From the IMG/VR virus record IMGVR_UViG_2728369182_000003: 5,295 nucleotides of DNA. One strand, written 5' to 3'. Shown here one piece after another: positions 1,258-5,252 of the stretch. The position numbers and the translations under genes were made by a program. Position 1 is the stretch's first letter. Each line of letters opens with the position of its first letter. Below the pieces are notes generated by a model. That model saw only the letters and a list, made by a program, of their open reading frames with translations, did not search any database and was not told the DNA's origin. This DNA is from a virus (Duplodnaviria; Heunggongvirae; Uroviricota; Caudoviricetes).

Positions 1258-1321
1258 NNNNNNNNNNNNNNNNNNNNNNNNNNNNNNNNNNNNNNNNNNN
1301 NNNNNNNNNNNNNNNNNNNNN
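1258..1321. other. Assembly gap, 64 N, inside the portal gene
   Basis: Run of n characters. The portal reading frame differs on the two sides (frames of 1810 and 1253 differ), and lambda has about 40 residues between the flanking motifs, so the N length is not the true length. Confidence 0.99.
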
Positions 1322-2611: not shown

Positions 2612-2686
2612 AGACACCACCCGTTTACCGGTTAATAAATCAAGGCGCGCCTGACGCAGCGCCTGCAGTTCAGCGACTGTAACCAT
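2513..2686 (-). CDS. W: Head completion / head-tail joining protein, lambda gpW-like, N-terminal 58 codons with start ATG at 2686..2684
   Basis: MVTVAELQALRQARLDLLTGKRVVSVQKDGRRIEYTAASLDELNRAINDAESVLGTTR against lambda gpW [51 protein letters not shown]. Strong Shine-Dalgarno GGAGGAG about 5 nt upstream (revcomp of 2690-2696). The start overlaps the terminase stop (2672..2670) by 17 nt. Confidence 0.87.
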
Positions 2687-3641
2687 TCACTCCTCCGGAC
2701 AGCTTCGCTGCCAGTTCTTTAAGGGTTGGCCGGGTCGTCTCTTCTTCCCGGGATTTTGCCAGTACAGCCAGATCAAGCTGCCAGCGTTGCACGGACACAC
2801 GTAATGCCGCGTAGGCATACACCAGGCAGTCCAGCGCTTCGTTACGCCGCTTTTTGTTATCCCACAGCAGACGCATCTTTCCTTTTTCCCACTTCTCCAC
2901 AAGCTCTTCCGCGACCAGTTGCTGCGCCTCTGTCTGCGAAAAAATCTCCGGATCATCAGGAAAACGGATGGCATACGACGTGGCTTCATCCGCAGGCGTG
3001 GGCTCGGCTTTCATACGGGCATAGAGAATTTCTTTTGCGGTGTCCGTCCCCACTTCACACAGATACACGCCCCGCTGATTGCGGGTTTTTGGCATGGTGA
3101 TCACCGGCTTGCCATAGACAGATGCGCCTTTTACCGGCAGCACCCGGAAAACACCGTGTTTTTTTGACCTCTGATAAACGATTTCGCCATCGATCCCCCC
3201 GATGTCCCAGCAGACACGGGAAATGGTCATTTCGGTTCCGTCTGCATGGCGGTATTTTTTGTTGATCGCCGCATCCACACGTAACAGCGTCTCTTCCTCA
3301 TCGNNNNNNNNNNNNNNNNNNNNNNNNNNNNNNNNNNNNNNNNNNNNNNNNNNNNNNNNNNNNNNNNNNNNNNNNNNNNNNNNNNNNNNNNNNCGCACAA
3401 CCTTATCCATCAGCACCTGGTGATCGAGTTTTTCGCCCACAGCCTCTTCCCAGGTCTCGCCCAGCGTGGTGTTCACAAAGGTTTTCAGGCCGTTGGGATC
3501 TTTCAGTGCATCCAGCCAGTCATAGACAATCTGTACCCAGGTGGTGAACGGACTGTACGCCGTCCAGATATGGAAAGTGATGGAGCGCGGCGGCGGAATT
3601 TCATCACCCCGGGCGCTGAAAAACATCAGGCCGTCACGGGT
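2670..3641 (-). CDS. A: Large terminase subunit, lambda gpA-like, C-terminal (nuclease-side) portion downstream of the in-frame TGA; contains the 90-N gap
   Basis: Same frame as the upstream segment. TRDGLMFFSARGDEIPPPRSITFHIWTAYSPFTTWVQIVYDWLDALKDPNGLKTFVNTTLGETWEEAVGEK...DEEETLLRVDAAINKKY...ISRVCWDIGGIDGEIVYQRSKKHGVFRVLPVKGASVYGKPV...GVYLCEVGTDTAKE...LWDNKKRRNEALDCLVYAYAALRVSVQRWQLDL aligns with lambda gpA ...TRDGILWFSSSGEEIEPPDSVTFHIWTAYSPFTTWVQIVKDW...TFVNTTLGETWEAKIGER...DDEQTLLRVDEAINKTY...ISRICWDTGGIDPTIVYERSKKHGLFRVIPIKGASVYGKPV...LWDSKKRRNEALDCFVYALAALRISISRWQLDL. Stop TGA at 2672..2670. Confidence 0.88.
   Translation of the reverse strand, partial: TRDGLMFFSARGDEIPPPRSITFHIWTAYSPFTTWVQIVYDWLDALKDPNGLKTFVNTTLGETWEEAVGEKLDHQVLMDKVVXXXXXXXXXXXXXXXXXXXXXXXXXXXXXXXDEEETLLRVDAAINKKYRHADGTEMTISRVCWDIGGIDGEIVYQRSKKHGVFRVLPVKGASVYGKPVITMPKTRNQRGVYLCEVGTDTAKEILYARMKAEPTPADEATSYAIRFPDDPEIFSQTEAQQLVAEELVEKWEKGKMRLLWDNKKRRNEALDCLVYAYAALRVSVQRWQLDLAVLAKSREEETTRPTLKELAAKLSGGVNGYSR
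3304..3393. other. Assembly gap, 90 N, inside the large terminase gene
   Basis: Run of n characters. Lambda has about 48 residues between the flanking motifs (...MAERKE and DDEQTLLRV), so about 144 nt would be expected; the N length is probably nominal although the frame is preserved. Confidence 0.99.
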
Positions 3642-4544
3642 TCACATGCCCGTGTTTTCACAGATCCACCGCCCGTTACTCTGGTCAAGCTCAGACTGAT
3701 GGATCACACAGCCATGATGCTCACAAAGGTAGAAAACACTTTCTGGCTTATTCTTCTCCCACTTAAGACCGAAAGGCGAGGCATCATCGCCAAATTTCAG
3801 ATACTGCTCCTCCCCACAGTGCGGACAGGGCACATAAAAACGCATGAAGTGTGCCGACTCGTTAGCGGCTTTTTCGATCTGGCAGGAGCCTTTGATTTTA
3901 GGCGTCGAGCCGCGAATGGATTTTGGCCATACAGAGCCCTCAATACGTTTATCCCCCAGCAGGGTTGGCGAACCCTCTTTTTCAACATCCGGTTCGAACG
4001 AGGAAAGCTCGTCATAACAGACCACATCCACGGATTTTTCACGGTAGTTTTTTGCTGCCGCACCACCCAGACACCAGAACCCCACACCGGAGGAAAAACG
4101 CTTCAGGGTGAGCGTATTATCGCGGTGTTTTCTTCCGAACCATGGAGCCAGCTCCAGCAATGCAGGAACATCCCTTATCGTTGGCTCAACATGAGATTTC
4201 ATAAAATCTTCAGCAGCTGAGTCCGTGGGCTGAAAAAGAAGGCTGTTGCGTGATTTATGCTCAATAAAATAAGCCTCCACTCCCAGCAACATCTTTGTAT
4301 AACCAACACGGGCAGATTTAATCAGGTTAACCGTGCGAATCAGATCGTTGCCCATACAGTTCATGATGCCAACCTGAAACGGCAGTGTTTCCCATCGCCC
4401 CGGGGTATAAGACGACTCTTTAGGAAGGTAATAATGTTTATTGGCCCACTGAACTGTCGTCAGTGGAACAGGAATAATGAGAGATAAAAGCCCTGTAGCT
4501 ATCGCACCGGCTGCATTAGCTGCCTTCTGCGCGTCTGAAATCAT
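3642..4544 (-). CDS. A: Large terminase subunit, lambda gpA-like, N-terminal (Nu1-binding and ATPase) portion of 300 codons, ending at an in-frame TGA (3644..3642)
   Basis: From ATG at 4544..4542: [100 protein letters not shown]...[37 protein letters not shown]...[23 protein letters not shown]...[54 protein letters not shown]...PFGLKW......[15 protein letters not shown]......ICE.TG. This is near-colinear with lambda gpA (...[63 protein letters not shown]...). I prefer the ATG at 4544 over the ORF track's start at 4586, which falls on a TTG codon (TTG or CTG at 399, 1810 and 85 are likewise printed as M by the track); it gives an N-terminus of lambda-like length and a 29-nt overlap with the Nu1 stop. 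Confidence 0.88.
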
Positions 4545-5064
4545 CGATCCACCCGCCCACGTTTTCACCGGCCTTAGCTGCAACATTGGAGGCTTTCGCG
4601 ATTTCAGTTTTCACCACATCAAGGTGTGATGGTGAAATGTCCGGATATTTACGCTGTAATGTCAACGGCACACGCACAAGTATCCCCGAAATCTCCTGTG
4701 CCACACGTTGCAGAATGAAGGTAAACAGTTCAGTTTCCAGCACTACTCCGTCTTCACGGGCATTTTTCAGTTCCTGCGCATCTGCCTGCGCTTTTGTGAG
4801 CCGGTAGCGTTCATAGTCAATGGTGCCGGGTTGTAAATCTGACTCCGCTGCCGCACGCAAATCGTCCAGTTCTTTGCGGAGCTTTTCGTTTTCGATATCA
4901 GTTTCCCTCTGCGCATACCACTGAATTGCCATGGCAGTATCAAATACAGATTCAATGCCCTTACTACCTTTGGAGGCGCAAGGGAGTCCCTGAGACTGCC
5001 AGCGTTCAATCGTCCGCGGGTCCACGTTGAAAATTTCGGCAAGCCTCTTTTTATTAACCTTCAT
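4516..5064 (-). CDS. Nu1: Small terminase subunit, lambda gpNu1-like (N-terminal winged-HTH DNA-binding domain), 182 aa
   Basis: [104 protein letters not shown]... against lambda Nu1 [104 protein letters not shown].... ATG at 5064..5062, TAA at 4518..4516. Confidence 0.93.
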
Positions 5065-5240
5065 GAAAACAACCCATTATCAAATACAAGGCCCGACATG
5101 AAAACGCCAGAAAAAGGCATTTTCGGACACTTTCATGTCGGACCTTTACGGATGCAATATTAAAAAAAACAAAAAGTTATATTCGAGAAGTACCGACACG
5201 ATTTTCCCTGAAAAATTTTCATAAATAGTGAAAAACCGCG
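5065..5240 (-). promoter_or_regulatory. cosB-like region between cosN and the Nu1 start; expected small-terminase binding region
   Basis: Position is equivalent to lambda cosB (between cosN and the Nu1 start). The cosN-proximal part (minus strand CGCGGTTTTTCACTATTTATGAAAATTTTTCAGG, about 5206-5240) closely matches lambda CGCGGGTTTTCGCTATTTATGAAAATTTTCCGG. The Nu1-proximal part is diverged and holds a 14-bp inverted repeat. A-tracts at about 5163-5177 and 5210-5219. Confidence 0.55.
5090..5144. repeat. 14-bp inverted repeat (5090-5103 ggcccgacatgaaa; 5131-5144 tttcatgtcggacc; 1 mismatch) with a 27-bp spacer, 26 bp upstream of the Nu1 start; candidate Nu1 recognition elements
   Basis: Direct reading: revcomp of 5131-5144 is ggtccgacatgaaa against ggcccgacatgaaa at 5090-5103. 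A third partial copy ttcggacac lies at 5122-5130. Confidence 0.6.
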
Positions 5241-5252
5241 AGGTCGCCGCCC
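5241..5252 (-). other. cosN core: the 12-nt cohesive-end sequence, identical to phage lambda's
   Basis: Plus strand aggtcgccgccc, whose revcomp is 5'-GGGCGGCGACCT-3', the lambda left cohesive end. Flanks also match: minus strand ...CAGGTTACG|GGGCGGCGACCT|CGCGG. Confidence 0.82.

What the first reader, a model, noticed from the sequence alone, without database searches (positions are those of the whole stretch)
3624..3647. In-frame TGA splits the large terminase at a conserved Trp position
The minus strand reads ggc atg tga acc cgt gac ggc (G M * T R D G) where lambda gpA has G I W T R D G. The reading frame is identical on both sides (4544, 3644 and 3626 are all in phase), and conserved terminase sequence continues for about 320 codons downstream. 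The simplest reading is a TGG->TGA nonsense change giving a 300-aa ATPase-only product, which would make this prophage packaging-defective. Alternatives are a base-call error in a visibly low-quality assembly, low-level UGA readthrough by tRNA-Trp restoring the native residue, or reinitiation at the in-frame ATG six codons downstream (3626) giving a two-piece terminase. The last two are speculative.
Basis: partly seen in the sequence, partly recalled or inferred. Interest (0 to 1): 0.5.

Follow-up and report, generated by a model that had tools for sequence, protein, structure and literature searches.

The report
Nonsense-mutated terminase in decaying prophage
A single G-to-A change has turned a tryptophan codon into a stop codon in the DNA-packaging gene of a phage 21-like prophage of E. 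coli; the change is real, is inherited by a whole bacterial lineage and is already annotated as a pseudogene, so it is ordinary prophage decay.

Summary
On the minus strand, TGA at 3644-3642 is codon 301 of the large terminase gene, which starts with ATG at 4544.

- **Ancestral codon.** Phage 21 gene 2 and lambda gene A both have Trp (TGG) at this position. Over 1859 nt, from cos into the gene, the window differs from phage 21 by this one base only.
- **Not a base-call error.** The same TGA is in three independent complete E. coli genomes (HM670, KE51, AHB19), where RefSeq marks the gene "pseudo, internal stop". It is also in six other long assemblies, and the exact 300-aa product is recorded on 154 contigs.
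- **Rare and derived.** Only 3 of 1273 complete genomes that match the site carry it, and none of the 23 matching phage records does.
- **Position in the protein.** The stop lies between the GpA_ATPase (46-293) and GpA_nuclease (323-601) domains. The product therefore lacks the cos endonuclease and the portal-binding C-terminus.
- **Other damage.** In all three complete genomes the same prophage also has an IS3 element in replication gene O.
- **Alternatives.** Readthrough of UGA-A by tRNA-Trp is chemically plausible but untested. Reinitiation at ATG307 has a poor ribosome-binding site.

Verdict: an already annotated nonsense pseudogene, of low interest.

The parts
2670..4544 (-). Large terminase gene (phage 21 gene 2 / lambda A homolog), now a pseudogene with an internal stop. 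It contains a scaffold gap at 3304-3393.
   Evidence: Window 5295-3394 is 100% identical to HM670/KE51/AHB19, where PGAP annotates 'phage terminase large subunit family protein, pseudo, internal stop'. The translation is identical to phage 21 gp2 except W301*. Pfam finds GpA_ATPase and GpA_nuclease.
3642..3644 (-). Premature stop codon TGA (codon 301). The ancestral codon is TGG (Trp301), and the change is G903A in the gene.
   Evidence: Searches show the codon. It is the only difference from phage 21 over 1859 nt. It is the only difference from phage 21 gene 2 in 8 of 9 long assemblies. It is exact in 3 of 1273 matching complete genomes.
3642..4544 (-). Truncated ORF encoding a 300-aa N-terminal fragment, which is the packaging ATPase domain only.
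   Evidence: Pfam GpA_ATPase covers residues 46-293, E = 1.3e-57. This exact protein is on 154 contigs, for example EQQ77655.1 of E. coli HVH 109.
2670..3626 (-). Downstream in-frame ORF from ATG307. It carries the endonuclease domain and the C-terminal portal-binding end and is probably not translated efficiently.
   Evidence: Pfam GpA_nuclease. The Shine-Dalgarno duplex upstream is only -1.9 kcal/mol, against -6.8 to -9.5 for four neighbouring genes and -3.1 for gene 1. Gene callers list it as a separate 336-aa ORF on 67 contigs.
3304..3393 (.). Scaffold gap of 90 N inside the terminase gene. It stands for 144 bp (48 codons) in the complete genomes.
   Evidence: window 3394 corresponds to L001 5207, and window 3303 corresponds to L001 5352.
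4516..5064 (-). Small terminase subunit gene (phage 21 gene 1, Nu1 family). It is intact and overlaps the start of the large subunit gene.
   Evidence: ORF list. Annotation of the identical sequence is WP_000867568.1 'terminase small subunit'. Pfam Phage_Nu1.
5087..5252 (-). Phage 21-type cos site (cosN cohesive end, cosB R3-I1-R2-R1), intact.
   Evidence: Window 5252-3394 aligns to phage 21 bases 1-1859 with one mismatch, the TGA. The site coordinates are taken from the phage 21 annotation.

Best explanation
A real, vertically inherited point mutation (G903A, TGG->TGA, Trp301->stop) has inactivated the large terminase gene of a phage 21-like lambdoid prophage. The prophage is integrated next to sitABCD in a lineage of extra-intestinal E. 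coli. [quoted passage not shown] The product can still bind the small subunit and ATP. It has no cos-cutting nuclease and no C-terminal portal-docking end, so the prophage cannot cut or package its DNA. The mutation is recent, because there is no further decay in the gene. It is one of several lesions in a prophage that is turning into a cryptic remnant. Shown here: the mutation, its ancestry, its reproducibility, the domain content of the fragments and the other lesions. Inferred from established lambda terminase biology: the loss of packaging.
For: TGA is codon 301 in frame. Phage 21, lambda and the paralogous prophage copy all have TGG/Trp there. The window differs from phage 21 by this one base over 1859 nt. 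The HM670 gene product equals phage 21 gp2 at 642 of 643 positions. The same allele is in HM670 (USA, stool), KE51 (USA, urine) and AHB19 (UK, blood), annotated 'pseudo, internal stop'. It is also in six further assemblies and on 154 contigs / 242 index blocks. It is rare among relatives: 3 of 1273 genomes and 0 of 23 phage records. The three 50-kb prophage loci differ by only 2-5 SNPs, apart from HM670's extra IS3 copy in gpJ, so inheritance is clonal. Pfam places GpA_ATPase at 46-293 and GpA_nuclease at 323-601, and only the first lies in the 300-aa product. Literature: lambda TerL has an N-terminal translocation ATPase, a C-terminal endonuclease and a portal contact at the extreme C-terminus. 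Loss of only the last 5 residues (Aam42) already gives a very low phage yield (PMC4856287; PMC7229814). The same prophage carries IS3 in replication gene O and in a DUF1382 gene in all three genomes, and in gpJ in HM670.
Against: No expression or phage-production data exist for these strains. UGA followed by A is a context reported to be prone to misreading by tRNA-Trp (PMC5289835), which would restore the wild-type residue, so the block may not be absolute. The rest of the head and tail module is intact, and downstream of the stop the gene carries at most one substitution. That is expected for a recent mutation, but it gives no positive evidence of relaxed selection. One search finds one SNP in nine copies. 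The background rate is about 2-5 SNPs per 50 kb, so there is no statistical power.
Confidence: 0.9

Rival explanations
1. The TGA is a sequencing or assembly error in a poor draft, and the true codon is TGG.
For: The window is a low-quality scaffold. It has five N runs, a gap of the wrong length inside this gene, and interleaved fragments of two paralogous prophages.
Against: The 1902 nt around the codon are 100% identical to three finished genomes from different laboratories and countries, all with TGA. Six more long assemblies carry it, and the exact truncated protein is on 154 contigs. Collapse of paralogs cannot create TGA, because the paralog has TGG.
Confidence: 0.01
2. The stop is leaky. 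tRNA-Trp misreads UGA-A at a low rate and inserts the original Trp, so a small amount of fully wild-type terminase is made. That amount would be enough for some packaging, of this prophage or of other phage 21-cos elements.
For: The stop is UGA with +4 A. [quoted passage not shown] A UGA reporter gives about 2% readthrough at 37 C and 4% at 25 C in K-12 (PMC10570021). Readthrough would restore the native residue exactly.
Against: Nothing suggests selection for this. The stop is confined to one clone. There is no significant local RNA structure (z = -1.1) and no Rfam match. The reporter figures come from K-12, whose RF2 variant is known, from my own knowledge and not tested here, to terminate UGA poorly. 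The prophage in all complete genomes also lacks a functional O gene, so it should not replicate on induction whatever the terminase level.
Confidence: 0.07
3. Ribosomes that terminate at UGA301 reinitiate at ATG307, 15 nt downstream. This would give separate ATPase and nuclease polypeptides that assemble into a working two-piece terminase.
For: ATG307 is in frame and close to the stop. The break falls between the two Pfam domains, in a segment absent from distant gpA homologs. Each fragment would therefore be a whole domain. Gene callers do predict the 336-aa ORF.
Against: The Shine-Dalgarno match is weak, at -1.9 kcal/mol, against -6.8 to -9.5 for gene 2, W, portal and protease (gene 1 is also weak, at -3.1). 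The split is not conserved in any relative. Terminase mechanics rely on communication through the covalent interdomain link (T4 gp17, PMC3074133). Residues 301-306 of the conserved WTRDG motif would be lost.
Confidence: 0.02
4. The UGA is a programmed recoding signal, either selenocysteine or regulated readthrough.
For: Only that the codon is UGA.
Against: Relatives have TGG, and the sequence is otherwise identical to phage 21, so no recoding element can have evolved. No SECIS or other Rfam family scores at the gathering threshold. The local fold is not better than shuffled sequence.
Confidence: 0.003

Closest known systems
Phage 21 terminase large subunit gp2 (OL657228, UMO75417.1), the lambda gpA family
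   Same: The protein is identical at 642 of 643 aligned positions (the stop column counted; 641 of 642 residues), and the nucleotides are identical except G903A. The cos site, small subunit gene and gene order (1, 2, W, portal, protease) are the same.
   Different: Codon 301 is TGA instead of TGG, so the gene cannot give the 642-aa protein by normal decoding.
RefSeq pseudogenes K8B93_RS10460 (HM670), U8P20_RS12180 (KE51) and AC9VTI_RS19095 (AHB19)
   Same: They have the same sequence and the same internal stop, and the three sit in the same prophage at the same chromosomal site.
   Different: Nothing differs at the finding. The window is a gapped, partly chimeric draft of the same locus.
Classical nonsense mutants of lambda gene A (for example Aam42)
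   Same: These are premature stops in the large terminase that remove C-terminal functions and abolish phage yield unless suppressed or complemented in trans (PMC4856287).
   Different: Aam42 removes 5 residues and is an amber made in the laboratory. This opal arose naturally in a prophage and removes 342 residues, including the whole nuclease domain.
Natural UGA readthrough by tRNA-Trp in E. coli (UGA-A context)
   Same: It has the same stop codon and the same +4 base. Readthrough would insert Trp, the ancestral residue.
   Different: There is no evidence that readthrough here is used or selected. The stop is a recent lineage-specific mutation, not a conserved feature.

Membership tests
Lambda gpA-type large terminase (TerL) | N-terminal GpA_ATPase domain (PF05876) | tested here: met
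   Residues 46-293 of the 300-aa ORF, E = 1.3e-57.
Lambda gpA-type large terminase (TerL) | C-terminal GpA_nuclease domain (PF20454) in the same polypeptide | tested here: not met
   The domain is encoded (E = 1e-47 in the window's downstream ORF; 323-601 in phage 21 gp2) but is separated from the ATPase domain by TGA301. The locus is therefore a pseudogene of this family, not a functional member.
Lambda gpA-type large terminase (TerL) | Gene context: cos, Nu1-type small subunit upstream, gpW and portal downstream | tested here: met
Nonsense pseudogene in a decaying prophage | A sense codon at the site in close and more distant relatives, with a single-base change here | tested here: met
   TGG in phage 21, lambda and the paralog, and a non-identical sequence at the site in the other roughly 1270 matching genomes. 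G903A is the only difference from phage 21.
Nonsense pseudogene in a decaying prophage | The allele is reproducible in independent assemblies, so it is not an artefact | tested here: met
   Three complete genomes, six further long assemblies and 154 contigs.
Nonsense pseudogene in a decaying prophage | Other inactivating lesions in the same prophage | tested here: met
   IS3 in replication gene O and in a DUF1382 gene in HM670, KE51 and AHB19, and IS3 in gpJ in HM670. This cannot be checked for the window's own genome, because those genes lie outside the window.
Programmed stop-codon readthrough or selenocysteine recoding | The stop codon is conserved among relatives | tested here: not met
   3 of 1273 genomes and 0 of 23 phage records.
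Programmed stop-codon readthrough or selenocysteine recoding | A downstream stimulatory RNA element or SECIS | tested here: not met
   No Rfam family at the gathering threshold. The local fold has z = -1.1 against shuffles.
Programmed stop-codon readthrough or selenocysteine recoding | A leaky stop context | tested here: met
   UGA followed by A. This context is reported as prone to tRNA-Trp misreading (PMC5289835). The actual readthrough level was not measured.
Naturally split (two-gene) large terminase | The split is conserved in relatives and the downstream ORF has its own ribosome-binding site | tested here: not met
   All nine aligned homologs are single polypeptides. The anti-SD duplex upstream of ATG307 is -1.9 kcal/mol.

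The most novel reading that the evidence does not exclude
The opal codon is functionally leaky. In its UGA-A context, tRNA-Trp restores the native Trp301 often enough that the lineage keeps a low level of authentic phage 21-type terminase. That terminase could still cut and package cos-21 DNA, for instance a recombinant with the co-resident prophage or a cos-bearing satellite. The 'pseudogene' would then be a down-tuned gene rather than a dead one.
Probability: 0.05. Interest if true: 0.35.

Novelty: already known. Interest (0 to 1): 0.08.

Why it matters
It matters little beyond annotation. It tells anyone working with this E. coli lineage (HM670, KE51, AHB19, HVH 109 and relatives) that the sit-adjacent phage 21-like prophage cannot package DNA by itself. 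It also shows that the split "ATPase" and "nuclease" ORFs in draft annotations are two halves of one broken gene. It is a clean natural example of very early prophage decay, with a single nonsense change in a gene otherwise identical to that of a living phage. Together with strain FCI5, it shows how recombination with a co-resident prophage can overwrite such a lesion.

Tried and rejected
- **Base-call error.** Rejected after finding the identical allele in many independent assemblies.
- **Paralog collapse as the source of the TGA.** Rejected because the second prophage copy has TGG.
- **Selenocysteine or structured recoding.** Rejected. There was no Rfam hit and no significant fold.
- **Solved-structure search to place residue 301.** No PDB relative is detectable by sequence. 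Pfam boundaries and a nine-sequence alignment were used instead.
- **Release factor 2 allele in the TGA-bearing strains.** This bears on the readthrough level. I fetched K-12 prfB and searched the E. coli genomes. The search lists only the best-scoring records, so the HM670 copy could not be retrieved and the check was abandoned.
- **Lambda gpA domain paper PMC2082050.** Not held by the library.
- **Relaxed selection downstream of the stop.** There is no statistical power: 0-1 SNP per copy, against 2-5 SNPs per 50 kb of prophage.

Full report
**Observation.** The minus strand of the window reads ...aac acg ggc atg TGA acc cgt gac ggc ctg ATG ttt.... TGA is at 3644-3642 and the next in-frame ATG is at 3626-3624. 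The mechanical ORF list shows a 314-aa ORF ending at this stop and a 318-aa ORF starting at 3626 in the same frame. The start used by the annotations of phage 21 and of the E. coli genomes is the ATG at window 4544. From there, TGA is codon 301 and ATG is codon 307.

**What the gene is.** Window 5252-3394 aligns to bases 1-1859 of phage 21 (OL657228) with a single mismatch. That stretch holds the phage 21 cos site (cosN, cosB R3-I1-R2-R1), gene 1 (small terminase, window 5064-4516) and the first 1150 nt of gene 2 (large terminase). The one mismatch is the third base of codon 301, TGG in phage 21 and TGA here.
- Phage 21 gp2 and lambda gpA are 67% identical, and both have Trp301, in GMWTRDG and GIWTRDG respectively.
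- Pfam places GpA_ATPase at residues 46-293 and GpA_nuclease at 323-601 of the intact protein. The 300-aa product holds only the first domain, and the downstream ORF holds only the second.
- I aligned nine gpA-family proteins spanning 27-91% identity. The WT(R/K)D motif is present in all five lambda-like members: 21, lambda, the E. coli paralog, a Pseudomonas phage and a Vibrio phage.
- The roughly 20-residue segment that carries the motif is missing from the four distant members. The Trp is therefore conserved within the lambda-like branch, and it sits in an interdomain segment rather than in a family-wide core.

**Is the TGA real?** Yes.
- The 1201-nt query around it is 100% identical in three finished E. 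coli chromosomes. These are HM670 (O2:H1, stool, USA), KE51 (urine, USA) and AHB19 (blood, UK). In each, PGAP marks the 1929-nt gene as a pseudogene with an "internal stop". Codon 301 is TGA in all three.
- A 61-nt query centred on the codon is exact in only these 3 of the 1273 complete genomes that match it.
- None of the 23 matching phage records is exact.
- The exact 300-aa product is in the public protein collection on 154 contigs, for example EQQ77655.1 from E. coli HVH 109. The 336-aa ORF from ATG307 is on 67 contigs, often with adjacent accession numbers.
- A position look-up lists the 300-aa product in 242 index blocks, 65 of them on contigs longer than 1 Mb.
- In nine long assemblies the gene differs from phage 21 gene 2 only by G903A, and one assembly has one extra SNP.
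- The three 50-kb prophage loci differ from each other by 2-5 SNPs, apart from HM670's extra IS3 copy in gpJ.

The mutation therefore arose once, recently, and is inherited clonally. It cannot be a base-call error or a product of paralog collapse, because the co-resident paralog has TGG.

**Consequence.** Lambda-type TerL carries three functions: the translocation ATPase in the N-terminal domain, the cos endonuclease in the C-terminal domain, and the portal contact at the extreme C-terminus. A nonsense mutation removing only the last five residues (Aam42) already gives a very low yield, which wild-type terminase rescues in trans (PMC4856287; PMC7229814). A stop at codon 301 removes the whole nuclease domain and the portal-binding end. 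By inference from this established biology, the prophage cannot cut cos or package DNA.

The prophage is damaged in other ways too. In HM670, KE51 and AHB19 an IS3-family element interrupts replication gene O and another interrupts a DUF1382 gene. HM670 has a third in the tail-tip gene J. This is a prophage on its way to becoming cryptic, and it carries iss/bor and a porin gene next to sitABCD.

**Alternatives.**
- **Readthrough.** The stop is UGA followed by A. That context is reported as especially prone to misreading by tRNA-Trp (PMC5289835). K-12 reporters give about 2-4% UGA readthrough (PMC10570021). Readthrough would restore the native residue, so a trace of wild-type protein is chemically plausible.
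  - Against it, nothing indicates selection. The stop is clone-specific, there is no Rfam element, and the local fold is no better than shuffles (z = -1.1).
  - The K-12 figures probably overestimate readthrough in natural isolates. This is from my own knowledge of the K-12 RF2 variant and was not tested.
  - The O::IS3 lesion makes the question moot for phage production.
- **Reinitiation at ATG307.** The spacing is only 15 nt and the break falls neatly between the domains. However, the anti-Shine-Dalgarno duplex is -1.9 kcal/mol, against -6.8 to -9.5 for gene 2, W, portal and protease (gene 1 is -3.1). No relative has a split gene. Terminase function depends on communication through the covalent interdomain link (PMC3074133).
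- **Selenocysteine.** This is excluded for the same reasons as readthrough selection.

**Comparison with what is known.** This is the phage 21 large terminase gene with one nonsense change. It is already annotated as an internal-stop pseudogene in RefSeq, and as two adjacent ORFs in older drafts. It fails the membership test for a functional gpA-type terminase only on the uninterrupted-ORF criterion. It meets every criterion of an ordinary nonsense pseudogene. It fails the criteria for programmed recoding and for a naturally split terminase.

**Things seen on the way.**
- **The window is a poor scaffold.** It has five N runs, and the 90-N gap inside the terminase gene stands for 144 bp. Downstream of the terminase gene, portal and protease fragments of two paralogous prophages are interleaved, at 100% and about 95-97% identity to the HM670 locus.
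- **Copy-2-like bases.** Three bases in the 3' part of the terminase gene (3003, 2992, 2970) match the second prophage copy rather than the first.
- **A second prophage.** KE51 has a second lambdoid prophage about 70 kb away with an intact 642-aa large terminase. It is 84% identical to gp2 over residues 1-300 and 98% identical after that. Its small subunit is unrelated at the N-terminus.
- **Strain FCI5.** It carries the same prophage with the same two IS3 insertions, but its terminase is intact. All 98 differences from KE51 over 50 kb lie in one patch of about 3.9 kb, running from terminase nt 693 into the protease gene. Of these, 87 equal the base of the second prophage copy. This is a gene-conversion tract that spans codon 301. 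Either it repaired the TGA, or it occurred in a sister line that never had it.

**Verdict.** The feature is already known as an annotated pseudogene and is of low interest.

Noticed in passing
window 1258-1321, 1824-1833, 2194-2203, 2481-2511, 3304-3393 and the segments between them: The window is a gapped, partly chimeric scaffold. Portal and protease fragments of two paralogous lambdoid prophages are interleaved between N runs. Segment 2480-2204 is 100% identical to the HM670 locus, 1823-1332 is 94.9% identical to an overlapping part of it, 2193-1834 is 97.2% identical and 1257-1 is 97.4% identical. The 90-N gap in the terminase gene replaces 144 bp.
   Followed up: partly
window 3003, 2992, 2970 (terminase nt 1596, 1607, 1629): Three bases differ from HM670 and phage 21 and equal the base of the co-resident second prophage copy and of strain FCI5. 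They change ...KADPTPVDE... to ...KAEPTPADE.... This is either a short conversion tract or mixed paralog reads in the draft.
   Followed up: partly
L022 (E. coli FCI5, NZ_CM172810) 25643-29582, compared with L007 (KE51) and L009: FCI5 has the same prophage, the same site and the same two IS3 insertions, but an intact terminase (TGG). All 98 differences from KE51 over 50 kb cluster in a patch of about 3.9 kb, from terminase nt 693 into the protease gene. Of these, 87 match the second prophage copy. This is a gene-conversion tract between co-resident prophages that covers the mutated codon.
   Followed up: yes
L006/L007/L008 4559-5868 and 13977-15287; L006 42830-44140: Identical IS3-family elements interrupt a DUF1382 gene and replication gene O of the prophage in HM670, KE51 and AHB19. 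A third copy interrupts tail-tip gene J in HM670 only. The prophage is therefore defective independently of the terminase stop.
   Followed up: yes
L009 (KE51, NZ_CP141080 2445212-2456468): A second lambdoid prophage lies about 70 kb from the first. Its large terminase is intact, with TGG at codon 301. That terminase is 84% identical to gp2 over residues 1-300 and 98% identical over 301-642. Its small subunit has an unrelated N-terminus, so its cosB specificity is probably different.
   Followed up: partly
window 5087-5252: There is a complete phage 21-type cos site (cohesive end, R3, I1, R2, R1), base-for-base identical to phage 21. The packaging signal is intact although the enzyme gene is broken.
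   Followed up: partly
L006 19506-23479 and 47523-50000: The prophage carries cargo genes between Q and cos: an OmpC-like porin, iss/bor and a TonB-family protein. It sits directly next to sitABCD. These may explain why the remnant is retained.
   Followed up: no
protein collection, cluster 1: The 90%-identity cluster that holds the 300-aa terminase fragment has as its representative a 421-aa Alistipes glycoside hydrolase/polysaccharide deacetylase. This looks like a clustering or indexing oddity of the database and not biology.
   Followed up: no
window 3633-3652 (minus strand): A 6-bp inverted repeat, CACGGG/CCCGUG, brackets the AUGUGA. The 56-nt fold is not better than shuffled sequence (z = -1.1), and the repeat also exists in the wild-type gene.
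   Followed up: yes
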